Below are positions 1-21,841 of a DNA stretch of 25,241 nt, piece by piece (position 1 is the first letter of the stretch; each line of letters begins with the position of its first letter). The notes beneath the pieces are model-generated. The model searched no databases. It worked only from the letters and a program-made list of their open reading frames with translations, and was not told where the DNA came from. Location of the stretch: positions 1 through 25,241 of the IMG/VR virus record IMGVR_UViG_2547132488_000009. One strand, 5' to 3'. Origin of the DNA: a virus. Its lineage: Duplodnaviria; Heunggongvirae; Uroviricota; Caudoviricetes. The translations under genes were made by a program, and so were the position numbers.

Positions 1-378
1 AATTTCAAAAGCATCAATGACAAATGGGGGCATCATATGGGTGATCAAGTCATAGTAATGGTTACCAGAATAATAAAAAAATCCATCAGGAAAGAGGATA
101 TATTAGGGCGCTTAGGCGGTGAGGAGTTCGGTATTATCATTAAAGGTAATACTCAAAAGCTCTTGCTATCAATTGCAGAGCGAATCAGAAAAAACATTGA
201 AGAGCAATGCTCGGAAAAATTATTATCGCATGGACCTGAGAAAATAACTGTCAGTATTGGTTGCTTTACTTCAAAAGAGAATAATCTCAGTCCATCTGAA
301 ATGTTAGTCAATGCCGATAAAGCGTTATATCAAGCCAAAAGAACCGGAAAAAACAAGGTGATAACTCACTCAAAATAA
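1..378 (+). CDS. Diguanylate cyclase, GGDEF domain C-terminal part (5' end lies outside the window)
   Basis: Frame is open from position 1 (NFKSINDKWGHHMGDQ...). It contains a GGEEF active-site motif preceded by an RxxD I-site (RKED) at the usual spacing, and a C-terminal ALYQAKRTGKNKV motif typical of GGDEF domains. The region is markedly AT-rich. Confidence 0.8.
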   Translation, partial: NFKSINDKWGHHMGDQVIVMVTRIIKKSIRKEDILGRLGGEEFGIIIKGNTQKLLLSIAERIRKNIEEQCSEKLLSHGPEKITVSIGCFTSKENNLSPSEMLVNADKALYQAKRTGKNKVITHSK

Positions 379-583: not shown

Positions 584-778
584 TCAGTCCAGTTTCCAGA
601 CAACCAGTGCGTCACCTTTTTGAAGGCGCTTTAAAGCACGTTTTAATCCAGGTCGGCCTGTCCTTATTCCGCTTAATTTATCTTCAAATATTTGTTCACA
701 TCCTGCACAAACAAGAGCGTTTCGTTGCAGGTCTGTATTCTGGTCATTTGTTGATACCCTTACATAGCCAATCAGCAC
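584..778 (-). pseudogene. pin: Pin/Gin/Hin-family serine DNA invertase, N-terminal fragment only (about 64 codons, truncated)
   Basis: From a GTG start at 778 (GGGAGA Shine-Dalgarno about 6 nt upstream) it reads LIGYVRVSTNDQNTDLQRNALVCAGCEQIFEDKLSG...GDALVVWKLD, the invertase catalytic N-terminus with the active-site Ser region. A stop follows directly after KLD, and none of the three minus frames of 379..583 encodes the expected RLGRS... continuation. Confidence 0.85.
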
Positions 779-832
779 GCTGAATCTCCCGTCCAAAAGC
801 ACAAATCATGCCATGCAGGCCAGAAACCGCCA

Positions 833-858
833 TTATCTAAAACCTCGGTTTACAGGAA
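833..858. promoter_or_regulatory. gix/pix-type 26-bp inversion crossover site (left)
   Basis: TTATCTAAAACC-TC-GGTTTACAGGAA: two 12-bp half-sites around a central dinucleotide, differing by one base from the Mu gixL sequence as I recall it. It is the inverted partner of the site at 3886..3911. Confidence 0.8.
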
Positions 859-1803
859 ACGGTAAATCAGGCTTCTGGCGCATTACAGAAAAACCAGAAC
901 GGCGCAGATATTCCGGGAAAAGATACCTTCACCAAAAACATTGGTGCCTGCCGCGCATATAGCGCATGGCTGAATATTGGTGGCGATAGTCAGGTCTGGA
1001 CAACTGCGCAATTTATTTCGTGGCTGGAGAGTCAGGGGGCATTTAACCATCCTTACTGGATGTGCAAAGGCTCATGGGCTTATGCAAATAATAAGGTTAT
1101 TACAGATACAGGTTGCGGAAATATTTGTCTTGCAGGTGCTGTGGTGGAAGTTATTGGCACTCGCGGCGCAATGACCATACGCGTTACTACGCCGAGCACG
1201 TCCAGCGGTGGCGGAATTACTAACGCTCAATTCACTTATATTAATCATGGTGATGCTTACGCTCCTGGCTGGCGACGAGACTACAACACGAAAAACCAGC
1301 AGCCTGCATTTGCTTTAGGGCAAACAGGACGCAGGGTCGCAAATGATAAAGCTGTTGGCTGGAACTGGAATAGCGGTGTTTATGATGCAGATATCAGTGG
1401 TGCATCGACATTAATCCTCCACTTCAATATGAATGCGGGGAGTTGCCCTGCTGTACAGTTCCGCGTGAATTACAGGAACGGCGGTATTTTTTATCGTTCA
1501 GCGCGTGATGGTTATGGCTTTGAAGCTAACTGGTCAGAGTTTTACACCACAACACGCAAACCCTCTGCGGGGGATGTTGGTGCATATACGCAGGCAGAAT
1601 GTAACTCAAGGTTTATTACAGGTATTCGCCTTGGCGGTCTGTCATCTGTTCAGACATGGAAAGGCCCCGGCTGGTCTGACAGGTCAGGTTATGTCGTTAC
1701 GGGTTCAGTTAACGGAAACCGTGCTGAATTAATTGATACAACTCAGGCAAGGCCAATTCAGTATTGCATTAATGGGACGTGGTATAACGCGGGGAGTATT
1801 TAA
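841..1803 (+). CDS. Alternative side-tail-fibre C-terminal cassette, silent in this orientation (no start codon of its own)
   Basis: The frame is open from the stop codon inside the left crossover site and reads NLGLQETVNQASGALQKN..., the same junction peptide as Stf at the right site. It ends ...RPIQYCINGTWYNAGSI, parallel to the expressed Stf end ...RPIQKYINGTWYNVVQV. Confidence 0.75.
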   Translation, partial: NLGLQETVNQASGALQKNQNGADIPGKDTFTKNIGACRAYSAWLNIGGDSQVWTTAQFISWLESQGAFNHPYWMCKGSWAYANNKVITDTGCGNICLAGAVVEVIGTRGAMTIRVTTPSTSSGGGITNAQFTYINHGDAYAPGWRRDYNTKNQQPAFALGQTGRRVANDKAVGWNWNSGVYDADISGASTLILHFNMNAGSCPAVQFRVNYRNGGIFYRSARDGYGFEANWSEFYTTTRKPSAGDVGAYTQAECNSRFITGIRLGGLSSVQTWKGPGWSDRSGYVVTGSVNGNRAELIDTTQARPIQYCINGTWYNAGSI

Positions 1804-1805
1804 CG

Positions 1806-2339
1806 ATGATGCACTTAAAAAACATTACTGCTGGCAACCCTAAAACAAAAGAGCAATACCAGCTAACAAAGCAATTTAACATCAAATGGCTTTATTCAGA
1901 TGATGGAAAAAACTGGTATGAGGAACAAAAGAATTTCCAGCCAGACACTTTGAAAATGGTCTATGACCATAACGGCGTTATTATTTGTATTGAAAAGGAT
2001 GTTTCAGCAATTAATCCAGAGGGTGCAAGCGTCGTTGAATTACCTGATATTACAGCAAATCGCCGGGCTGATATTTCGGGGAAATGGATGTTCAAAGATG
2101 GCGTAGTGATAAAGCGAACTTATACCGAGGAAGAGCAGAGGCAACAAGCGGAAAATGAAAAGCAAAGCCTGTTGCAACTTGTCAGGGATAAAACCCAGCT
2201 ATGGGACTCACAGCTACGGCTGGGCATCATTTCCGACGAGAATAAACAAAAATTAACCGAGTGGATGCTCTATGCGCAGAAAGTCGAATCTACAGACACT
2301 TCCGGCCTGCCAGTAACGTTTCCCGAACAACCAGAATGA
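1806..2339 (+). CDS. tfa: Tail fibre assembly protein Tfa, partner of the silent cassette
   Basis: 177 aa starting [40 protein letters not shown], the conserved Tfa N-terminus. It starts 2 nt after the cassette stop. Confidence 0.85.
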   Translation: MMHLKNITAGNPKTKEQYQLTKQFNIKWLYSDDGKNWYEEQKNFQPDTLKMVYDHNGVIICIEKDVSAINPEGASVVELPDITANRRADISGKWMFKDGVVIKRTYTEEEQRQQAENEKQSLLQLVRDKTQLWDSQLRLGIISDENKQKLTEWMLYAQKVESTDTSGLPVTFPEQPE

Positions 2340-2367: not shown

Positions 2368-2895
2368 TTACTCTGGTTTTTGTGGCCATTCAGGATTTGC
2401 CGTATCCACACGGCTGACCAGAACACTGTAGCGTTCCCATGCTTCCAGTCGTGTGCGTTCCTCGTCTGTTGCCATATTCAGCCTGACAGCGCGTTCCAGC
2501 GGTTGGATGACTGATTCAGCTTCGGAAAGCAATGCGGCCTTTTGTGATTCGGCCTGTTGTTGTTGCTCGTCTGCCGTATAAATCCGTTTAACCACAGCTC
2601 CGTCCCTAAACATCCACTTACCGGAATCATCAGCGCAGCGGTTGGCTGTAATATCTGGAACCTCAACGACGCTATAACCTTCAGGGTTAAGCGTGGAGGC
2701 ATCTTTGGTGATGGCGACAATAATATTATTTGCATCGTAAACAATCTTTATTGTGTCTGGCTGAAAGTTTTTCACTTCCTCATACCAGTTTTTTCCGTCT
2801 TCGGACCATAACCAGATAACATCAAAATTCTTTGTTAGCTGATATTGTTCTTTTGTTTTTGGATTTCCAGACTTAATATTTTTTAAATGCTGCAT
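2368..2895 (-). CDS. tfa: Tail fibre assembly protein Tfa, partner of the expressed fibre C-terminus
   Basis: 175 aa starting [40 protein letters not shown]. It is a paralogue of the plus-strand tfa with a divergent C-terminal half and overlaps the stf stop. Confidence 0.85.
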
Positions 2896-2898
2896 AAA

Positions 2899-5472
2899 TT
2901 ACACCTGTACGACGTTATACCATGTGCCATTGATGTATTTTTGTATTGGTCTGAATACTGCCGGATCATCGCCATCAACTGCACCGATAATGCCAAGCCC
3001 CGTAATTGCATGACCTGATTTCTCATACATCACGCCTTTTTGCATAGTCTGAACAACACGTGTACCAAGTCGGACATCTCTCACATAACGTGAGTCAAAA
3101 TTACCATAATTGCCGGGAATAACTTGCGCACCGCAAAGCCAGTTGCCATTGTTGTCCATGTACGCCTGACCATCGGTGCCATTGGCTGTCCTTGAGTTAT
3201 TAATCATGTAGATGCCAAATTGCTTATTCCCCAGTCCACCAATCATAAATTTGCGATCAGCGTGGTCCTGACGAAGTAATGCCTGCGCACCATCGGTGGA
3301 TACCGCATTGCGTCCCAAAATAACATTCTGGTCACGCATATGAATCCACATGCCGGTACTACTGTTAATTGCAAAACGGTTTGCAAATATATCCCCTGTA
3401 ACATCAAGACCATGCCCCATGCTTATCCGACCAGTTCTGAGATTAAGCGTAAAGGGGCGTAGTGGCCCTATATCACCATTTTCTCCCTCATTCTCTCGTG
3501 TAGGGATGATATGCAGGCATTCTTCAGAACGACGAAAAATAGCACCAAAAGATGAATTAAATATCCTCAGTGCATTGACTGTCGATATTTTTACTTCACT
3601 GCTGAAAAGGGCTTTAACAAGGACAGACAAAGCATCCCATTTAAGAGTCATCAGGTCTTTTGTTGTGGTGCTCTGGCGGCTTCTCCATTTGAAATATTCA
3701 TTGCCGTTGTCGCCTGTTTCAAACCACATGTATGAATCAGTGTCGCTGTCGGCATTATTTTTAAAACCAATCTTTGCCCAGTCAGTATTTCTAATCCAGG
3801 CAAGGATTGAGTCGTTTTCAAAAGTAAGCCCACCGGACAAGGTATCGCCATTCTTTTGCACGGCGTTCCTGGCCCTGTTTACCGTTTCCTGTAAACCGAG
3901 GTATTCGATAACGGCAGCAACGGTCGATTTCGCAAGAATATCCCGCCCGACTTTTGTCAGGGTTGCCAGGCTGGCGACATCATTCCCCGTAAAATACGGA
4001 AACCTGTCTGCCGCAGTAGCAAGCCCGGCCAGCGCCGTCAGGGTGGCATCTTTCGGTTGCTTACCCGCAAGCGCGTTAGTCATGGTGGTCGCAAAATTCG
4101 GGTCGTTTCCCAGCGCCGCCGCTAACTCGTTCAGCGTATTCAGTGCGTCAGGTGACGAATCTACAAGGGCGGCAATCGCAGCCATAACGAAAGCCGTGCT
4201 TGCGATTTGGGTATTATTAGTTCCCTGTCGCGCAGTTGGCGTTGTTGGTGTTCCGGTCAGTGCCGGGCTGTTTAATGGGGCTTTCTTGTTTGTTTCATCC
4301 ATTACCGCCTTAACCGCTTTCGATGTCGCGGCCAGTGTTTCAGACGTGCTGTTGGTATCACTACTGAGTTGTACTATCCCCTTTTTCGTCGTACTCGCAT
4401 CCTCAAGCGCCACAGCGGATGCAATATCCTCTGCCCGTTTTGCTGCCGTCCCGGCGCGCGTTGCTGCGGATTCTGCCGCACTTTTGCTCTGTGCTGCCGC
4501 CGTCGCACTGCCAGCTGCCTCTGTCGCCTTCGTGGATGCCGTCGTGGCGCTGCCTTTCGCTGCTGACGCCTGTTTAGTCGCCTCATCTTTTGAAGCAGAC
4601 GCAGATGATGCCGATGACGCCGCCGAACTGGCGGACGATGCGGCTGCCGTTTTTGAGGATTCGGCACGGGTTTCCGACGCTTTCGCATTCGTCTCAGATG
4701 TCTTCGCTGCGGAAGCAGACCTCGCAGCTGCAGTGGCCTGTTCAGTGACTTCGCCAGCCTTCGTTGTGGCTGTTGAAGCGGACGATGCAGCGCTTTCTGC
4801 CGATTTTTCAGCGGCGGTAACGCTGGCTGCCGCATTCGTTTCTGACGTTTTCGCTGCACCGGCACTGGTGGCCGCCGCGCTTTTTGAGGACTCTGCAGCA
4901 GCAGCACTTTTCGATGCCTCAGAGGCTTTTGCTGATGCCGTTCCTGCGCTGGAAGACGCTGACTGAGCCGACGACACGGCCTGTCCGGCTGACGTGCTGG
5001 CTGCGCGTGCTGAGTCTGCAGCATCAGTCGCATGGGTTGCCGCCTCACGGGCTGATGTGCTGGCATCGCCGGCTGACTTCTTCGCGGCTGCCGTGTTCTG
5101 TGCCACTGCGGACGCGTTACGCGCCACCTCTTCCACCATCACTTCAAAACGGCGCAGTGCCTCCGGCATAACATCCTCTTCCGTCATGGCACCGAGAAAA
5201 TCATTCAGCGTACCGGGTTGAGAATCTTCATACACGGTGATGGTCCCGGCATGTGACGGCGGGAATCCCTCCACCAACAGACTGACGCTGTACTGACCGT
5301 ACTCAACGTCCATACTGTAACGCCCGGCTTCATCCGGATTTTCAGAGGCCACCGTGTTCACCACAACCGTGGTGCTGTTACGTTTTGCTTTGAGCTGAAT
5401 GGTGCAGTTCTGTATCGGTTTTCCTGCACCGTCTTTCAGCACGCCTGAGATTTTTACTGCTGCCATATCCAC
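2899..5472 (-). CDS. stf: Side tail fibre protein Stf (constant N-terminal part plus the currently joined variable C-terminus)
   Basis: 857 aa. The N-terminus (MDMAAVKISGVLKDGAGKPIQNCTIQLKAKRNSTTVVVNTV...) matches lambda Stf as I recall it. It has a long Ala/Ser/Thr-rich central region and crosses the right crossover site near residue 525. The start could instead be the third codon (5466). Confidence 0.9.
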   Translation of the reverse strand: MDMAAVKISGVLKDGAGKPIQNCTIQLKAKRNSTTVVVNTVASENPDEAGRYSMDVEYGQYSVSLLVEGFPPSHAGTITVYEDSQPGTLNDFLGAMTEEDVMPEALRRFEVMVEEVARNASAVAQNTAAAKKSAGDASTSAREAATHATDAADSARAASTSAGQAVSSAQSASSSAGTASAKASEASKSAAAAESSKSAAATSAGAAKTSETNAAASVTAAEKSAESAASSASTATTKAGEVTEQATAAARSASAAKTSETNAKASETRAESSKTAAASSASSAASSASSASASKDEATKQASAAKGSATTASTKATEAAGSATAAAQSKSAAESAATRAGTAAKRAEDIASAVALEDASTTKKGIVQLSSDTNSTSETLAATSKAVKAVMDETNKKAPLNSPALTGTPTTPTARQGTNNTQIASTAFVMAAIAALVDSSPDALNTLNELAAALGNDPNFATTMTNALAGKQPKDATLTALAGLATAADRFPYFTGNDVASLATLTKVGRDILAKSTVAAVIEYLGLQETVNRARNAVQKNGDTLSGGLTFENDSILAWIRNTDWAKIGFKNNADSDTDSYMWFETGDNGNEYFKWRSRQSTTTKDLMTLKWDALSVLVKALFSSEVKISTVNALRIFNSSFGAIFRRSEECLHIIPTRENEGENGDIGPLRPFTLNLRTGRISMGHGLDVTGDIFANRFAINSSTGMWIHMRDQNVILGRNAVSTDGAQALLRQDHADRKFMIGGLGNKQFGIYMINNSRTANGTDGQAYMDNNGNWLCGAQVIPGNYGNFDSRYVRDVRLGTRVVQTMQKGVMYEKSGHAITGLGIIGAVDGDDPAVFRPIQKYINGTWYNVVQV
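3886..3911. promoter_or_regulatory. gix/pix-type 26-bp inversion crossover site (right), inside the stf coding sequence
   Basis: TTCCTGTAAACC-GA-GGTATTCGATAA. One half-site is identical to the left site in inverted orientation and the central dinucleotide is complementary, as required for inversion. It encodes the EYLGLQETVN segment of Stf. Confidence 0.8.
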
Positions 5473-5530: not shown

Positions 5531-6130
5531 TCAGAATTTATAACCGACACCCACGATGAAACCGTCAGTGCGCCAGTCGCCACTGCCGGAGCCTTCATAA
5601 GCAATATCAATGGCCACGGACTCGGTCGGGTTAAACTGCACGCCAGCCCCCCACGCCAGAGACGTGTTGCTGTGGCGACCGTCATCACTTCCGGTCAGCA
5701 CATCGTGCGTTTTCCCCTTGTTGTCGGTCACCTGCAGATAATCTCCGGAAAAAGTCGACACACGGCTGTAAGCCACACCCGCCATCGCATACGCGCTGAA
5801 CCATTCATTCACGCGCACAGACGGCCCCGCCATCACGCTGAACCCGCGGTTACGCACAGAATCCTCATGCCATCGGGTATCGCTGTAATGCGTTTTTTGC
5901 TCATCTTTGGCATTGGCATAACTGAATGACGTCACAACACCCAGCATGTCCGTAAACTCATAACGGTATTTCACGTTAATCCCGTTCAGATCATCACTAC
6001 CGGGAACGTTCGTCGAGGCATGGAGATACCCCGCGCTCAGCGTGGACTGATGTTCTGCTGCACTCGCTGGCGTGGCAGCGACGACCTGCCAGACTACTGC
6101 GGACAAAATAACAGCACATAATTTACGCAT
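5531..6130 (-). CDS. lom: Lom outer-membrane protein (Ail/Lom/OmpX/PagC beta-barrel family)
   Basis: 199 aa with an N-terminal signal peptide (MRKLCAVILSAVVWQVVAATPASA), alternating beta-strand pattern and C-terminal ...GVGYKF. It sits between J and stf as in lambda. Confidence 0.9.
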   Translation of the reverse strand: MRKLCAVILSAVVWQVVAATPASAAEHQSTLSAGYLHASTNVPGSDDLNGINVKYRYEFTDMLGVVTSFSYANAKDEQKTHYSDTRWHEDSVRNRGFSVMAGPSVRVNEWFSAYAMAGVAYSRVSTFSGDYLQVTDNKGKTHDVLTGSDDGRHSNTSLAWGAGVQFNPTESVAIDIAYEGSGSGDWRTDGFIVGVGYKF

Positions 6131-17652: not shown

Positions 17653-17928
17653 TTACTCAATAAAGATCATTGGCTTACCGTTAAAACGTTCATGCCGTGT
17701 GACCGTCCATTGTTGTCCGTCATAAACAACGCGATCCCCGCGCCGTGGGCGGTATCCCGAAGAAAACACCACCAGAGAGACCGCAAGTCCGGACAGAGCA
17801 TTCAGCTCTGCCAGTGTTTCTCCCGGGATCACAGTCATATCGACATCATTAATCGAGGCTGTCTTTCCCATCTTTCTGACCGTGATCGCATCCATACGCG
17901 CTGCCAGCCGGGAAAAGGGATCAGACAT
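17653..17928 (-). CDS. Head-tail joining protein, FII-like
   Basis: 91 aa. The C-terminal motif PRRGDRVVYDGQQWTVTRH resembles the RRGD...W.V motif of lambda gpFII, and it lies between the head genes and Z. Confidence 0.55.
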   Translation of the reverse strand: MSDPFSRLAARMDAITVRKMGKTASINDVDMTVIPGETLAELNALSGLAVSLVVFSSGYRPRRGDRVVYDGQQWTVTRHERFNGKPMIFIE

Positions 17929-18244
17929 TGAGTTTTACCGGCACTTCTTCTGCACTGGTTCCGGCATCTGCCCAGACAACCCCGACCAGCGGATCAGAGC
18001 CGCTGTTAGTCAGCTGAACTTTTCCGGACTTCAGATAAACCTTCTTACCCGTTTTCATGTCATCCGTTTTCAGCTTCGGCAACATAAATACGCCTTCAGC
18101 GATACCATCTCCCGTTTCGCCTTTCGCAATATCGGTCAGTGCCACCGCAAAAACATCTCCCACCTGCACCAGTTCTCCGCTACTGATATTTGCACCAGCA
18201 ACAATCGCCACCGTTTTTCCTTCTTCTACAAAATTCTTTGCCAT
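17921..18244 (-). CDS. Small head protein of uncertain role (FI position; possible head decoration or packaging factor)
   Basis: 107 aa from the ATG at 18244 (GGAG upstream): MAKNFVEEGKTVAIVAGANISSGELVQVGDVFAVALTDIAKGETGDGIAEGVF... It lies directly downstream of the capsid gene. Confidence 0.5.
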   Translation of the reverse strand: MAKNFVEEGKTVAIVAGANISSGELVQVGDVFAVALTDIAKGETGDGIAEGVFMLPKLKTDDMKTGKKVYLKSGKVQLTNSGSDPLVGVVWADAGTSAEEVPVKLNV

Positions 18245-18330: not shown

Positions 18331-20391
18331 TTACGCCGTACATTTCACCAGACCGCGGTGATCAACTGGCGCGACACCTGCGTCAATACGCACTTTCGTT
18401 GTCACGCCATCCACACTGAAGCCCTCCATCTGATCAATATATGGCGTATCCACACCGTTGAGATAAGCCACTTCGATGGTATCCGTACCTTTCGCCGCAG
18501 CCAGATAAAAGGTGGTCTGGCTGTTATCATCAAGACGAGGCTCTGCAATAACGGTCGCAAAATCTTTCACCGGGTTAATAATACCGGCGTTAATGTCAGC
18601 CCCCTTGACACTTGAGGAGCGAATGACCTGGTTAGCAACAGACTCCATCGCTGTCGGTACCAGTACGAACGCAGGACGAATATTCAGATGACGCTCCCCC
18701 TCTTTCTGAACGCGCATCAACTGACGGGCTTTATCCAGTGATGCCACGTCCATTGCAGCGTTCTCCAGTACGTTTGCATGTTTCGCTTTATCGAACAGGC
18801 TCACATTATCCGTGGAGATTTTCGGGTTAGATGTCAGAATGGCATAAACCAGATCGGCAATCGTGGATTTTGCCGCACGCCCCAGTTTCATCGGAACATC
18901 GGTCAGCATATTCAGATCATCGTTGATAATGGCCTGACGGGTGATGCTGAACAGTTCACCATAGGTCGCCAGTGCAATCGTGGCCTGTTTATCTCCGGTG
19001 GTGACGTATTTATATTCCGCCCCCTCACGCACCTGACGCAGAGCACTGAAGCCCCCCATACCCACACGATGGGCAATTTTAAAATCAGACAACTGACCTT
19101 TCCGGGTCCACTGTTCGTAAGTCTCAGGGGCTTCTTCCCATCCCTGCAGAATGGCTTTGTTCGCGACATCCAGCAGAATATTACCGAAATCAGACGTACT
19201 GTGCGTGAACGCTGCCCCGACCATCTGCATCGGGTTATACCCGGAAACCCCAATCCCCCTTTCTGTCAGTGACATTCGGGCATATTCACGCAGGGTCATC
19301 CCGTTATAGACGTTATCCTGTTCACGCTCAGCAAATCCGGCACGCGCCATCAGCGCCTGACGGATCCCGTCCCCCACAAAATTACCGTTTCCAGCATAAA
19401 TATGGGCCGGGGTATTTTTATTTGATGGTGAAAATTCCTTACCCATTTCGTTAAGTAATTTCTCACGGGCCTGCTCAAGCGAGCACTCCGGATCGGAAAG
19501 ACAACTGGCCTGCAATGTCTGATAGCGCCCGCCAAACATACCAAACAGTTCATTAATACCACTCACACGTGCTTTTTGCTCTGCCAGTACCTGCGCACGG
19601 ATACTGCTTTCATCTGTGGAAGGTGCATTTGTGGTAGTCGCGGTTGTGGCAACCGGAGCCGTAGTCTGATCCTGTGTCTGAGATGCAGTATTTTTGTTTT
19701 CAGGTTCACGCGTTGCACTGTTGCGTGGCGGAATAATCATATTTCGAATGGATTCCGGCATTTTTTTAAATTCCTCTGTACGTTTTGACTGAATACATGC
19801 CATTGCCTTAACTTCCGGTGTCACCTGGTCAGCAAATCCGTGTGCCAGACATTCGGCACCGGACATCCAGGTTTCATCCGCCAGCATGGCAGCAATTTCA
19901 TCGGTGGTTTTCCCGGTTTTCTGCGCATAAGCAGGCAACAGGACCGACTCAACTTTATCAAGCAGGTCGGCATAATCACGCATATCATCCGCATCGCCAC
20001 CACTCACTCCCCATGGTTTATGGATCATCATGAATGCGTTTTCCGGCATGATGACGGGATCACCCACCATTGCAATGACCGATGCCATGGATGCCGCGAC
20101 ACCATCCACATAAACAGTGATGGACGCCCCATGATTTTTCAGCGCATTAAAAATGGCGATGCCTTCAAAGACATCGCCACCCGGTGAATTGATATGGAGA
20201 TTAATGTGGGTGATATTACCCAGCGCATTCAGATCGCTGACAAACTGCTTCGCCGTAACTCCCCAGAAACCAATCTCGTCATAGATATAAATATCTGCGT
20301 CACTTTTATGACCCGCCTTCATTCTGAACCAAGAATTATTCTTCAGGCTGGCCTTCGGTTCGCCGCGAAACCACGCGTTCTGTTTCAGCAT
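18331..20391 (-). CDS. Single-ORF prohead protease (ClpP/S49-like), linker/scaffold region and major capsid protein (HK97 fold)
   Basis: The start is taken at 20391 (MLKQNAWF, GGAGGTGG upstream). The N-terminus has ClpP-like protease motifs (INSPGGDVFEGIAIFNAL...DGVAASMASVIAMVGD...HKPWG), the centre is a Thr/Ala/Pro-rich linker, and the C-terminal roughly 350 aa is capsid-like (...KVRIDAGVAPVDHRGLVK). Confidence 0.8.
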   Translation of the reverse strand: MLKQNAWFRGEPKASLKNNSWFRMKAGHKSDADIYIYDEIGFWGVTAKQFVSDLNALGNITHINLHINSPGGDVFEGIAIFNALKNHGASITVYVDGVAASMASVIAMVGDPVIMPENAFMMIHKPWGVSGGDADDMRDYADLLDKVESVLLPAYAQKTGKTTDEIAAMLADETWMSGAECLAHGFADQVTPEVKAMACIQSKRTEEFKKMPESIRNMIIPPRNSATREPENKNTASQTQDQTTAPVATTATTTNAPSTDESSIRAQVLAEQKARVSGINELFGMFGGRYQTLQASCLSDPECSLEQAREKLLNEMGKEFSPSNKNTPAHIYAGNGNFVGDGIRQALMARAGFAEREQDNVYNGMTLREYARMSLTERGIGVSGYNPMQMVGAAFTHSTSDFGNILLDVANKAILQGWEEAPETYEQWTRKGQLSDFKIAHRVGMGGFSALRQVREGAEYKYVTTGDKQATIALATYGELFSITRQAIINDDLNMLTDVPMKLGRAAKSTIADLVYAILTSNPKISTDNVSLFDKAKHANVLENAAMDVASLDKARQLMRVQKEGERHLNIRPAFVLVPTAMESVANQVIRSSSVKGADINAGIINPVKDFATVIAEPRLDDNSQTTFYLAAAKGTDTIEVAYLNGVDTPYIDQMEGFSVDGVTTKVRIDAGVAPVDHRGLVKCTA

Positions 20392-21841
20392 TACCACCTC
20401 CTTTATCGCAGGCCGGATCGGTATCAAACACCAGATCCAGCCTGCGGTTTTCATCAATTTCGGCCTTGCGCCGACGTTTAACATCATCCGGATTACGACC
20501 ACTGGCGCGCACCCAGTCTGATTCTGTTGCCGCACCACCACGAATCTGGATTTTCCAGGCTTCAGCTTCCTTGACAGGATCAATCCACGGCATGACCGGA
20601 CCAGAATATGTTGCGTTATATAATGTTTTTATATCCACATCCGACGGAATTTTCAGCAACCCCGCGGCAACCACCATATTCAGCCATGCCCGGTACACCG
20701 GACGGGTTACAGCACCAATAAAACAGTCCTGCAGGATCAGATAGCCATCGGTGGACTCAACCAGCTCCTGTCGCTGGGAACTGTAGGTACCGTTATAGTT
20801 ACGTGCTGCACTGGAAAAACTCAGACGAGTGCCCGCCGCCATGGCCCGCAACTGACCATTACGAAAAGTTTCCAGATTAGGGTTAGGCCGATCAGATTTG
20901 ACCATGCCAATATCTTCCCCCTTACGCAGATCGTCATAAATAATGCCGGGAGTGATATGCAGTTCCCGATCATTATCTTTATTCGTCACAGGTTCCTCAT
21001 AATCCTGCCCGTCTCCTTTACGAATATACAGCCCCAGTGCCGCAGCAATGCGCGCCGCTACCAGCTCAGCATCTTCATATTCCTTAAGCGCACTGATCCG
21101 CATCAGCACACCTGACAACATGGATGTGCCACGCGTCTGATGAAGGCGGCGGGTAAACTTCAGATGCACCATATTTTCAGCGGCGATCTCTTTGGTTTCG
21201 CTCTGTCGCCCGGTAACCGGATAATTTTTATAAACCAGGTATTTTTTCGGCCTGCCCCATTCATCCAGAAAAACCCCCTGATTCATTCCCGCAGACTCAT
21301 CACTGAGCATGGGCACAAAATCCGGCTCCATTGCCTCGAGCCAGAAAGGCACACCGGCAGTCCGCGCCAGCCCGGCACCTGCGCCTCTGACCATCTGGGC
21401 AAACACTTCTCCATCACGTAACCAGGTACGCAACAGCAGACGTTCGAGCATGGGGCGCGTATGCTGCCCGGTCACATCCGGACTGACAGACCATTCCGCC
21501 CACAAACGACGGATAATCATTGCCAGCTCTGTAGCCATATCACCATTTTTCAGTAATGGTTGTGGTTCAACAATGATCCCCTTTGCACCAATCACCCGCT
21601 CCTCAAGTTTGTCGAAAACACCGATTACCAGGTCATGATTGATGTCCAGAAAACGGGCCTGTTCCCGCAGAGAAACCGCCCCGTACTTACTGAGCTGGTC
21701 GGCAGAACGGTTTTCCCGTCGGGCTTTGTGTGTGCGGGTGGGTTTCACGGCCTCATAAGCGCGAATTAACGCCCTTGAGCGCAACCTCGCAGCTTTCCAG
21801 CCGGGAGAAAAAACACCAATCACATCATCAAGAATTGCCAT
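20336..21841 (-). CDS. Portal protein
   Basis: 501 aa, between the gpW-like gene and the protease-capsid gene, with a TGATG stop/start overlap with the upstream gene. Size and synteny fit a portal. Confidence 0.72.
   Translation of the reverse strand: MAILDDVIGVFSPGWKAARLRSRALIRAYEAVKPTRTHKARRENRSADQLSKYGAVSLREQARFLDINHDLVIGVFDKLEERVIGAKGIIVEPQPLLKNGDMATELAMIIRRLWAEWSVSPDVTGQHTRPMLERLLLRTWLRDGEVFAQMVRGAGAGLARTAGVPFWLEAMEPDFVPMLSDESAGMNQGVFLDEWGRPKKYLVYKNYPVTGRQSETKEIAAENMVHLKFTRRLHQTRGTSMLSGVLMRISALKEYEDAELVAARIAAALGLYIRKGDGQDYEEPVTNKDNDRELHITPGIIYDDLRKGEDIGMVKSDRPNPNLETFRNGQLRAMAAGTRLSFSSAARNYNGTYSSQRQELVESTDGYLILQDCFIGAVTRPVYRAWLNMVVAAGLLKIPSDVDIKTLYNATYSGPVMPWIDPVKEAEAWKIQIRGGAATESDWVRASGRNPDDVKRRRKAEIDENRRLDLVFDTDPACDKGGGNAETERVVSRRTEGQPEE

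What the first reader, a model, noticed from the sequence alone, without database searches (positions are those of the whole stretch)
18331..20391. Protease, scaffold-like linker and major capsid protein in one polypeptide
A ClpP/S49-type protease domain, a low-complexity Thr/Ala/Pro linker and a capsid-like C-terminal domain share one uninterrupted 687-codon frame, whereas lambda uses separate C, Nu3 and E genes. This implies self-processing during head maturation. The upstream portal ORF overlaps its start by 56 nt.
Basis: partly seen in the sequence, partly recalled or inferred. Interest (0 to 1): 0.45.

Follow-up and report, generated by a model that had tools for sequence, protein, structure and literature searches.

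The report
Fused phage protease–scaffold–capsid gene
This is a real but already catalogued and very common prophage head gene that joins the capsid-maturation protease, a scaffold module and the major capsid protein in one reading frame; the new point is strong sequence evidence that a conserved internal start also makes a protease-free scaffold+capsid protein.

Summary
A 686-codon ORF on the minus strand (18331-20391) encodes a ClpP-fold protease, a disordered Thr/Ala/Pro stretch, a three-helix scaffold-like module and an HK97-fold capsid domain. It overlaps the portal gene by 56 nt.

It is not an artefact. The same intact ORF occurs in about 1,820 complete E. coli genomes, in cultured phages (cdtI, mEp460, Ayreon, Tritos) and in 80 gammaproteobacterial species.

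It is not new. It scores 994 bits against NCBIfam NF045540, [quoted passage not shown]. It also matches PHROG 133 over its full length, and the same layout was described for Pseudomonas phage MD8.

What I add is evidence for an internal start at ATG211 (window 19761):
- It is invariant in 77/77 fused genes.
- An AGGA Shine-Dalgarno motif precedes it in 77/77.
- The codons upstream have the lowest synonymous diversity in the gene.
- The mRNA there is the least structured and among the most AT-rich of the gene.
- It coincides with the start codon of relatives where protease and capsid are separate genes.

The gene therefore probably makes two products, as lambda C/Nu3 and Mu I/Z do: a 75-kDa protease-bearing subunit and a 52-kDa scaffold+capsid subunit. 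This is inferred, not shown.

The parts
18331..20391 (-). Full-length ORF: 686 aa plus stop, 74.7 kDa. ClpP-like prohead protease / scaffold module / major capsid protein fusion.
   Evidence: NF045540 994 bits against a cutoff of 475. PHROG 133 matched over its full length. Mass.
20397..20402 (-). Shine-Dalgarno AGGAGG for the full-length start, 5 nt upstream of ATG 20391.
   Evidence: Sequence read. Mean anti-SD pairing at this column across homologues is -8.8 kcal/mol.
20336..20391 (-). 56-nt overlap between the 3' end of the portal gene and the 5' end of the fusion gene, in different frames.
   Evidence: The same overlap is found in loci L001-L008.
19807..20337 (-). ClpP-fold serine protease domain, about aa 19-195. 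Ser101 is at 20089-20091, His124 at 20020-20022, and Glu173 (at the ClpP Asp171 position) at 19873-19875.
19772..19776 (-). Internal Shine-Dalgarno-like GAGGA, 10 nt upstream of ATG211.
   Evidence: Anti-SD pairing is <= -4 kcal/mol in 77/77 genes. Codon 206 ends in G in 75/75 E/Q/K codons.
18331..19761 (-). Proposed nested in-frame ORF from ATG211 (19759-19761): 476 aa, 51.8 kDa, scaffold module plus capsid protein without the protease.
   Evidence: ATG is invariant in 77/77. The minimum of synonymous diversity lies at codons 194-212. mRNA there is the least structured of 658 positions. It is the only one of 11 conserved Mets with all three signals. It coincides with the start of standalone relatives P0133 and P0146.
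19621..19722 (-). Disordered, hypervariable Thr/Ala/Pro/Gln-rich stretch, aa 224-257.
   Evidence: pLDDT <50. Variable in length and sequence. Composition. The same kind of stretch is present at the N-terminus of standalone scaffold+capsid relatives.
19438..19611 (-). Conserved three-helix scaffold (delta-domain-like) module, aa 261-318.
   Evidence: Helices 261-284, 291-299 and 305-318 at pLDDT 88-97. Conserved in fused and split relatives. Weak, non-significant resemblance to lambda Nu3 aa 110-159.
19387..19413 (-). Short disordered connector, aa 327-335. Candidate region for the maturation cleavage (inferred).
   Evidence: pLDDT <50 between the scaffold helices and the capsid N-arm helix. 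No experimental data.
18334..19380 (-). HK97-fold major capsid protein domain, aa 338-686, of the Mu gpT-related Phage_capsid_4 family.
20336..21841 (-). Portal protein, lambda gpB family, immediately upstream.
17921..18244 (-). Head decoration/cement protein immediately downstream (107 aa from ATG 18244).
   Evidence: Phage_cement_2 4.2e-19. PHROG 122 head decoration 7.7e-45.

Best explanation
This is the sole head-shell gene of a lambda-like siphophage prophage of E. coli. It is a member of the curated family 'ClpP-like prohead protease/major capsid protein fusion protein'. One frame encodes, in order: a ClpP-fold serine protease (Ser101/His124/Glu173), a short conserved tail, a disordered low-complexity stretch, a three-helix scaffold module equivalent to an HK97-type delta domain, and an HK97-fold capsid domain related to Mu gpT.

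Proposed mechanism (inferred):
1. The capsid domains co-assemble on the portal into a prohead, with the scaffold modules pointing inward. The protease is carried inside because it is covalently attached to capsid subunits.
2. Once concentrated inside the shell, the protease cuts away itself, the linker and the scaffold module. The cut is probably near aa 320-340 and would leave a capsid protein of about 39 kDa.
3. The shell then expands, packages DNA and binds the decoration protein encoded next door.

The gene probably yields two primary products. The full-length 75-kDa protein starts at 20391. A 52-kDa scaffold+capsid protein starts at the conserved internal ATG211 (19761). Only a fraction of subunits would then carry a protease, analogous to lambda C/Nu3, Mu I/Z and retroviral Gag/Gag-Pol.

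Shown here: domain identities and folds, conservation, synteny, and the DNA-level signatures of an internal initiation site.
Inferred: proteolytic activity, cleavage positions, use of the internal start, and stoichiometry.
For: Family and domains: NF045540 994 bits against a cutoff of 475; Pfam; PHROG 133; AF2 pLDDT 87.8, with ClpP and HK97-fold matches; profile hits to the solved Mu and JBD30 capsids.

Real and functional: intact in 1,820 of 5,426 complete E. coli genomes, where PGAP names it as this fusion. Present in 16 cultured or induced phage genomes at about 91% nt identity. Present in 80 species at 49-90% aa identity in a single frame.

Only head-shell gene: between portal and decoration there is no other protease, scaffold or capsid gene, here or in seven divergent loci.

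Catalytic residues: S101 75/77, H124 77/77, E173 74/77.

Modularity: a relative (L009) has a separate 201-aa protease gene, then a 38-nt gap, then a 443-aa scaffold+capsid gene that starts where Met211 lies here.

Internal start:
- ATG211 is invariant in 77/77; other Mets are conserved in 52-64.
- An AGGA motif sits at fixed spacing in 77/77, even where the encoded residues change, and codon 206 ends in G in 75/75.
- The ten lowest of 611 synonymous-diversity windows all lie in codons 194-212 (0.57 against 0.86 +/- 0.067).
- The 60-nt window on ATG211 is the least structured of 658 positions (-4.7 against -14.1 +/- 2.5 kcal/mol) and lies at the gene's AT-rich peak (rank 3 of 658).
- Of 11 conserved Mets, only this one shows all three signals.
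- Real starts of split relatives use an SD at the same 9-10 nt spacing.
- Lambda nu3 and Mu Z are annotated precedents for nested starts.
Against: - There is no protein-level evidence for proteolysis, cleavage sites or the 52-kDa product. No paper in the searchable library tests them, and no phage record I opened annotates a nested CDS.
- The 77 sequences are phylogenetically related, so the counts overstate independent support.
- Pro212 is conserved even in distant fused relatives where residue 211 is A/T/V. Part of the local conservation is therefore at the protein level.
- An SD-to-ATG spacing of 10 nt is at the long end for E. coli.
- The third catalytic position is Glu, not the Asp of ClpP.
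- The domain boundaries come from a predicted structure, not a solved one.
Confidence: 0.72

Rival explanations
1. Single-product polyprotein. Only the full-length 686-aa protein is made. Every capsid subunit brings its own protease into the prohead and all copies are trimmed. Met211 and its surroundings are conserved for protein-level or other RNA-level reasons.
For: All database records annotate a single CDS. Pro212 and a neighbouring motif are conserved in distant relatives that lack Met211. My rough volume estimate suggests about 415 copies of a roughly 36-kDa internal extension would fill under half of a T=7 prohead, so it is physically possible (inference, not computed with a tool).
Against: This model does not explain three things: third-position conservation of the AGGA motif, a synonymous-diversity minimum exactly upstream of an invariant ATG, and the gene-wide minimum of mRNA structure there. 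It also does not explain why split relatives start their capsid gene at the same residue.
Confidence: 0.22
2. Assembly or sequencing artefact: a collapsed frameshift or lost stop codon falsely joins separate protease and capsid genes.
For: Split arrangements do exist in some relatives (L009). Frame-joining variants of the neighbouring portal gene occur in databases.
Against: The identical architecture and length are found in 1,820 complete E. coli genomes, 16 phage genomes, thousands of protein clusters and 80 species down to 49% identity, always in one frame. A curated HMM spans the whole protein.
Confidence: 0.01
3. Decaying gene of a defective prophage: the fusion is a non-functional remnant.
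For: The prophage end in this window is eroded. The invertase is truncated at the host boundary.
Against: The same gene is carried by cultured or inducible phages (cdtI, mEp460, Ayreon, Tritos, phi458, ASU11). Catalytic and capsid residues are under strong purifying selection. The entire head-tail module in the window is intact.
Confidence: 0.02
4. The constrained AT-rich region before codon 211 is some other RNA or DNA signal, not an initiation site. Candidates are a ribosome pause for co-translational folding of the protease, a programmed frameshift, or an internal promoter.
For: SD-like sequences can occur inside genes without being starts (for example at codons 47-49 and 134-136). In this window the site contains an A7 run.
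Against: The A-run is not conserved; other genes read GAA-AAG, GAC-GCT and so on. The invariant elements are exactly those of an initiation region: SD, spacing, ATG and open structure. Homologous standalone genes initiate there.
Confidence: 0.05

Closest known systems
NCBIfam NF045540 (scaf_prot_MCP1) 'ClpP-like prohead protease/major capsid protein fusion protein'; PHROG 133
   Same: Full-length match (aa 32-685, 994 bits). Same domain order and same genomic position. PGAP uses this name for the near-identical gene in about 1,800 E. coli genomes.
   Different: Nothing architectural; this is a member. The family annotation does not mention a nested internal start.
Pseudomonas phage MD8 gp5 and MD8-like phages (PMC8508860, section 2.5)
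   Same: That paper describes protease, scaffold and major capsid protein encoded by one gene of about 693 aa, with a ClpP-like N-terminus and a Mu gpT/HK97-like C-terminus.
   Different: The MD8 description is bioinformatic only and treats the gene as a single product. The present protein belongs to the enterobacterial branch. Pseudomonas homologues found here are 49-56% identical.
Phage HK97 gp4 protease + gp5 capsid protein with N-terminal delta domain
   Same: The scaffold function is supplied by an N-terminal domain of the capsid protein that is removed by the prohead protease. There is no separate scaffolding gene, and the capsid has the HK97 fold.
   Different: In HK97 the protease is a separate gene of a different family (S78), and it is targeted non-covalently. 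Here the protease has a ClpP fold and is covalently attached upstream of the scaffold module. Some distant relatives of this capsid family do carry an S78-like N-terminal domain, with marginal Pfam scores.
Phage lambda C / Nu3 / E
   Same: Same gene neighbourhood: gpA-type terminase, W-like gene, gpB-type portal, then protease/scaffold/capsid and a decoration protein. The protease belongs to the ClpP/SppA superfamily. Lambda has a nested in-frame internal start (nu3 inside C), which is a precedent for the proposed ATG211 start.
   Different: Lambda has separate C and E genes. C is annotated as S49, whereas this protein matches S14/ClpP far better (SppA_dom 22.7 bits against a cutoff of 155). 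The capsid domain is Mu gpT-like, with no hit to the lambda gpE family. The scaffold module resembles Nu3 only weakly (E 0.028, not significant).
Phage Mu I / Z / T
   Same: The capsid domain is homologous to Mu gpT. Mu also orders its modules protease-scaffold-capsid and uses a nested internal start (Z inside I).
   Different: In Mu the stop codon lies between scaffold and capsid. Here there is no stop at all, and in relative L009 the stop lies between protease and scaffold. No detectable similarity to Mu Z.
Herpesvirus UL26/UL26.5 and retroviral Gag/Gag-Pol (from general knowledge, not tested here)
   Same: The logic is the same: a protease is delivered into the assembling shell as an extension of an abundant structural protein, with a shorter protease-free form made from the same frame.
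   Different: These are unrelated proteins. The shorter form is produced differently (separate promoter, or frameshift/readthrough). In herpesviruses the fusion partner is the scaffold, not the capsid protein.

Membership tests
NF045540 ClpP-like prohead protease/major capsid protein fusion | Whole-protein HMM score above the curated cutoff, with end-to-end coverage | tested here: met
   994.3 bits against a cutoff of 475; aa 32-685 match profile positions 2-651 of 652.
NF045540 ClpP-like prohead protease/major capsid protein fusion | N-terminal ClpP-related head maturation protease domain | tested here: met
NF045540 ClpP-like prohead protease/major capsid protein fusion | C-terminal major capsid protein domain in the same frame | tested here: met
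NF045540 ClpP-like prohead protease/major capsid protein fusion | Located in a phage head module between the portal and head-accessory genes | tested here: met
   Order is TerL, W-like, portal, fusion, decoration, head-tail genes. Synteny is identical in L001-L008.
ClpP (MEROPS S14) serine peptidases | ClpP/crotonase-like fold | tested here: met
ClpP (MEROPS S14) serine peptidases | Catalytic Ser-His-Asp triad | tested here: inconclusive
   Ser101 and His124 align with the ClpP catalytic Ser and His and are conserved in 75/77 and 77/77. The Asp171 position holds Glu173 (74/77), and the adjacent Asp172 is conserved in only 42/77. The triad is probably functional, but it departs from the canonical form.
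ClpP (MEROPS S14) serine peptidases | Proteolytic activity; tetradecameric barrel working with a Clp ATPase | not testable with these tools
   Needs biochemistry. The cellular ClpP equivalog models score far below their cutoffs (for example TIGR00493 58.9 against 308.6), so this is not a cellular ClpP.
HK97-fold major capsid proteins (Mu gpT / Phage_capsid_4 branch) | HK97 fold | tested here: met
HK97-fold major capsid proteins (Mu gpT / Phage_capsid_4 branch) | Sequence homology to experimentally solved capsid proteins | tested here: met
   Profile hits to the JBD30 capsid 8rkc (2.2e-11) and Mu gpT 9jod (5.8e-9). hhalign to Mu T 94.5%.
HK97-fold major capsid proteins (Mu gpT / Phage_capsid_4 branch) | Forms the virion shell | not testable with these tools
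   Inferred from its being the only capsid-like gene in the module. No virion proteomics was found.
HK97-type capsid protein with N-terminal scaffold (delta) domain | Helical N-terminal domain attached to the capsid protein, with no separate scaffolding gene | tested here: met
   Three confident helices at aa 261-318 directly precede the capsid domain. The same module is attached to the capsid domain in standalone relatives. The module contains no scaffold gene.
HK97-type capsid protein with N-terminal scaffold (delta) domain | The domain is removed by the prohead protease during maturation | not testable with these tools
   Needs N-terminal sequencing or mass spectrometry of virions.
Lambda C/Nu3/E head system | Separate protease-scaffold (C, S49) and capsid (E) genes; gpE-family capsid protein | tested here: not met
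   There is a single ORF. The protease matches S14, not S49. There is no gpE-family hit; the capsid domain is Mu gpT-like. Lambda's layout was verified.
Nested in-frame head genes (lambda C/nu3, Mu I/Z type) | Conserved internal start codon with a ribosome-binding site inside the longer ORF | tested here: met
   ATG211 77/77, SD 77/77, synonymous-constraint minimum, mRNA-structure minimum.
Nested in-frame head genes (lambda C/nu3, Mu I/Z type) | The shorter product is actually synthesised | not testable with these tools
   Requires a Western blot or mass spectrometry in a protease-dead background, toeprinting or TIS profiling.

The most novel reading that the evidence does not exclude
The 'fusion' gene is really a two-product nested gene. 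A conserved internal ribosome-binding site and ATG211 (window 19761) make a 476-aa scaffold+capsid protein as the bulk shell subunit. The full-length 686-aa protein would be a minority, Gag-Pol-like subunit that carries the protease into the prohead by covalent attachment. Protease dosage would then be set by the relative strength of two initiation sites: the upstream start is GTG in at least 42 of the 77 homologues and ATG in 16, while the internal start is always ATG. As far as I could find, this has not been described or annotated for this very common family.
Probability: 0.6. Interest if true: 0.45.

Novelty: already known. Interest (0 to 1): 0.3.

Why it matters
The fusion itself is ordinary. 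It is one of the commonest prophage head genes in E. coli, present in about 38% of complete genomes, and it already has a curated family name. Databases still label it inconsistently as "Clp protease ClpP", "protease/scaffold", "Nu3" or "major capsid protein", and that misleads prophage annotation and capsid-based classification.

The probable nested start matters more. It would show that the same three modules (protease, scaffold, capsid) are partitioned in different ways in related phages simply by moving stop and start codons:
- no stop plus an internal start (here);
- a stop after the protease (relative L009);
- a stop after the scaffold (Mu and lambda).

It would also give a simple, testable answer to how a capsid-fused protease is kept substoichiometric. 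And it would mean that about half of this gene's coding output is currently unannotated in thousands of genomes.

Tried and rejected
1. The first AF2 run used a shallow alignment (20 sequences, >=73% identity) and gave an unusable model (pLDDT 35). I replaced it with a 124-sequence alignment.
3. A sequence-only PDB search with the single protein found only ClpP chains. A profile was needed to reach the Mu and JBD30 capsids.
5. Literature searches for an experimental study of this fusion, or of nested initiation in it, found none. Two recalled papers (Liu & Mushegian 2004; Oh et al. 2014) are not held.
7. A programmed frameshift at the A7 run before ATG211 is rejected, because the run is not conserved.
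8. An SD-like motif alone is not diagnostic. Codons 47-49, 134-136 and 460-462 also score well because of Gly/Glu codons. That is why I added the synonymous-site, mRNA-structure and conserved-Met controls.
9. The invariant 'MP' does not extend to very distant fused relatives (30-45% identity). Residue 211 varies there and a Met often lies further downstream. The nested-start claim is therefore limited to the gammaproteobacterial clade sampled.
Full report
**1. Observation**

The window carries a lambda-like late operon on the minus strand. An ORF runs from the ATG at 20391 to the stop at 18331-18333, 686 aa. A strong AGGAGG lies 5 nt upstream of the ATG. The upstream ORF is a lambda-family portal (20336-21841).

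Pfam finds CLP_protease (aa 45-191, 1.7e-36) and Phage_capsid_4 (aa 388-683, 3e-54), with a partial Mu-like_gpT hit.

**2. Anatomy**

A first AF2 run on a shallow alignment failed (pLDDT 35). With 124 diverse homologues the model is confident (mean pLDDT 87.8). It divides the protein as follows:
- a disordered N-terminus, aa 1-18;
- a ClpP-like domain, about aa 19-195;
- two short helices, aa 202-219;
- a disordered stretch, aa 224-257, which is the Thr/Ala/Pro-rich region (11 T, 6 A and 3 P in the 37 residues 223-259) and is hypervariable in length and sequence;
- a confident three-helix module, aa 261-318;
- a second short disordered connector, aa 327-335;
- an alpha/beta domain, aa 338-686.

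Ser101 and His124 align with the ClpP catalytic Ser and His and are conserved in 75/77 and 77/77 homologues. The ClpP Asp171 position holds Glu173, conserved in 74/77.

**3. Not an artefact, and not new**

NCBIfam NF045540, 'ClpP-like prohead protease/major capsid protein fusion protein', matches end to end at 994 bits against a cutoff of 475. PHROG 133 also matches over its full length.

Megablast finds the gene in 2,074 of 5,426 complete E. coli genomes. In 1,820 of them it covers >=80% of the query, and PGAP annotates it under exactly that name. Sixteen cultured or induced phage genomes carry it at about 91% nt identity, including cdtI, mEp460, Ayreon, Tritos and phi458. Their product names are inconsistent: protease, Nu3, scaffold, major capsid protein.

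A scan of one genome per species returns 80 loci with the whole protein in one frame, at 49-90% identity, across Enterobacterales, Pasteurellaceae, Pseudomonas, Shewanella, Psychromonas and Photobacterium. Of the 150 best 50%-identity representatives of the capsid half, about 120 are 550-850 aa with the capsid domain at the C-terminus. Fusion is therefore the norm for this capsid clade.

The same three-in-one layout was described bioinformatically for Pseudomonas phage MD8 (PMC8508860). 'Major capsid and protease fusion protein' is also a standard annotation term for actinophages. The false-fusion rival is excluded.

**4. The only head-shell gene**

Here and in every divergent locus the order is gpA-type terminase, W-like gene, portal, this gene, decoration protein (Phage_cement_2 / PHROG 122), then head-tail and tail genes. 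No other protease, scaffold or capsid gene is present.

**5. Split relatives locate the module boundary**

About 20 representatives of 410-480 aa have only the low-complexity stretch and the helical module ahead of the capsid domain. One of them lies in a 375-kb contig (L009). There, a separate 201-aa ClpP-like protease gene ends in TAG, a 38-nt spacer containing AAGGA follows, and then the 443-aa gene begins MPPSAKNLFEP. A second relative begins MPKSAKRFFEP, preceded by GGGAG. Both starts align with Met211-Pro212 (MPESIRNMIIPP) of the window protein.

The low-complexity 'linker' is therefore the native N-terminus of a scaffold+capsid protein, not a fusion scar. The scaffold-like element is the helical module, which is always attached to the capsid domain, as the delta domain is in HK97 (PMC10275583).

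**6. Evidence for a live internal start**

I extracted 77 fused genes (the window plus 76 loci) and aligned them by codon.

a. ATG211 is invariant in 77/77. Met197, Met218 and Met285 are conserved in 64, 52 and 52.

b. Every sequence has an anti-SD pairing site (<= -4 kcal/mol) in positions -18 to -4. It is the motif xAG-GAx, about 10 nt upstream, and it survives changes in the encoded residues (GAG-GAA, CAG-GAG, AAG-GAT). Codon 206 ends in G in 75/75 E/Q/K codons, against gene-wide values of 40% for Glu and 34% for Lys. That is the highest of the 24 such columns.

c. Relative synonymous codon diversity in 10-codon windows reaches its gene-wide minimum at codons 194-212. All ten lowest of 611 windows fall there (0.57-0.68 against a mean of 0.86, sd 0.067).

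d. The 60-nt window centred on ATG211 is the least structured of 658 positions (mean MFE -4.7 against -14.1, sd 2.5 kcal/mol). It also lies at the gene's AT-rich peak (0.63 against 0.47, sd 0.04; rank 3 of 658). It is more open than the annotated start, which scores -10.2.

e. Negative control: of 11 conserved in-frame Mets, only Met211 combines all three signals. Met137 has an SD-like run from its Gly-Gly codons but lies in normally structured mRNA.

f. The spacing matches that of the real starts in the split relatives.

g. Nested in-frame starts are annotated precedents in lambda (nu3 inside C) and Mu (Z inside I).

Caveats:
- The sequences share ancestry, so the counts are not independent events.
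- Pro212 is conserved at the protein level even in very distant fused relatives, where residue 211 is A/T/V and a Met often lies further downstream.
- No protein-level data exist.

I put the probability that ATG211 is used at about 0.6.

**7. Mechanism** (inferred unless marked otherwise)

Capsid domains assemble on the portal into a prohead, with the helical scaffold modules facing inward. Full-length subunits bring the ClpP-like protease in covalently. High local concentration then allows cleavage of the protease, the disordered stretch and the scaffold module. The disordered connector at aa 327-335 is the most plausible final cut region, which would leave a capsid protein of about 39 kDa (masses). 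Expansion, DNA packaging and binding of the neighbouring decoration protein follow.

If the internal start is used, most subunits would be the 52-kDa scaffold+capsid form and only a fraction would carry the protease. The upstream start is GTG in at least 42 of the 77 homologues and ATG in 16, whereas the internal one is always ATG. That fits a lower output of the long form, although in this window the upstream start is ATG with a strong SD.

**8. Comparison with known systems**

This gene is a member of NF045540. It works like HK97 in that the scaffold is an N-terminal domain of the capsid protein and there is no separate scaffold gene. Its protease, however, is ClpP-fold rather than S78, and it is covalently attached.

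It shares lambda's gene neighbourhood and (probably) the nested-start logic. It is not a member of the C/Nu3/E system:
- the protease matches S14, not S49;
- the capsid domain is Mu gpT-like, not gpE-like;
- the helical module shows only a non-significant resemblance to Nu3 and none to Mu Z.

Some distant relatives of the same capsid family carry an S78-like N-terminal domain instead, with marginal Pfam scores. That corresponds to the second NCBIfam fusion family, NF045541, and suggests that proteases have been fused to this capsid type more than once.

**9. Verdict**

The added value is a specific, testable proposal: the gene is nested and makes two products. That would be a new detail within a known kind, not a new kind of system.

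**10. Side observations**

- The left end of the window holds an invertible tail-fibre segment. A 38-nt inverted repeat (829-866 and 3878-3915) brackets two opposed tail-fibre C-terminus and chaperone cassettes.
- The adjacent serine invertase gene is truncated to 72 aa (584-802, minus strand), next to a host GGDEF gene fragment.
- Databases also contain entries of about 1159 aa in which the portal frame runs into the protease-capsid frame, at the overlap.

Noticed in passing
window 829-866 and 3878-3915 (inverted repeat); cassettes at 1060-2339 (+) and 2368-3878 (-); tail fibre gene 2899-5472 (-): A 38-nt inverted repeat, 92% complementary, contains TTCCTGTAAACCGAGG. From memory this resembles a Gin/Pin/Hin-type crossover site. 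It brackets about 3 kb holding two opposed tail-fibre C-terminus and Caudo_TAP chaperone cassettes, and the right arm lies inside the 857-aa tail fibre gene. This looks like an invertible host-range switch.
   Followed up: partly
window 584-802 (-) and 37-378 (+): ORF 584-802 encodes only the first 72 residues of a Pin/Gin-type serine invertase (…IGYVRVSTNDQNTDLQRNAL…). It sits beside a host GGDEF-domain gene fragment. The prophage end appears eroded, so the invertible segment lacks its own intact invertase.
   Followed up: partly
database proteins P0049 and P0053-P0061 (about 1159 aa); the equivalent region is window 20336-20402: More than ten protein clusters join the portal frame directly to the protease-capsid frame ('…DTDPASDKGG|SSAQRNDRSRS…'). 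That is a frame change inside the 56-nt overlap, at the SD/start region. I did not determine whether this is a real mutation in a widespread defective prophage lineage or a recurrent sequencing error.
   Followed up: partly
locus L009 2411-4386 (GCA_000755365.1 contig BBMQ01000056.1): This is the split version of the module. A 201-aa ClpP-like protease gene is followed after 38 nt by a 443-aa scaffold+capsid gene. No portal gene was called upstream, and a DUF1441 gene lies downstream. The context is unlike a full phage head operon; it could be a satellite or a remnant.
   Followed up: no
proteins P0143 and P0256 (distant fused relatives of the capsid domain): The same Phage_capsid_4 capsid family is also found fused to an N-terminal domain with marginal Peptidase_S78 (HK97-type protease) hits, instead of ClpP. 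This matches the second NCBIfam fusion family, NF045541, and suggests independent fusions of different proteases to this capsid type.
   Followed up: partly
window 20389-20391, compared with the homologous start in L001-L008 and other loci: The full-length start is ATG in this window. In the 77 homologues it is GTG in at least 42 and ATG in 16, while the internal codon 211 is always ATG.
   Followed up: partly
window 5531-6130 (-): A full-length Ail/Lom-family outer-membrane protein gene (1.8e-122) sits between the J-like tip attachment gene and the side tail fibre gene, in the same position as lom in lambda.
   Followed up: no
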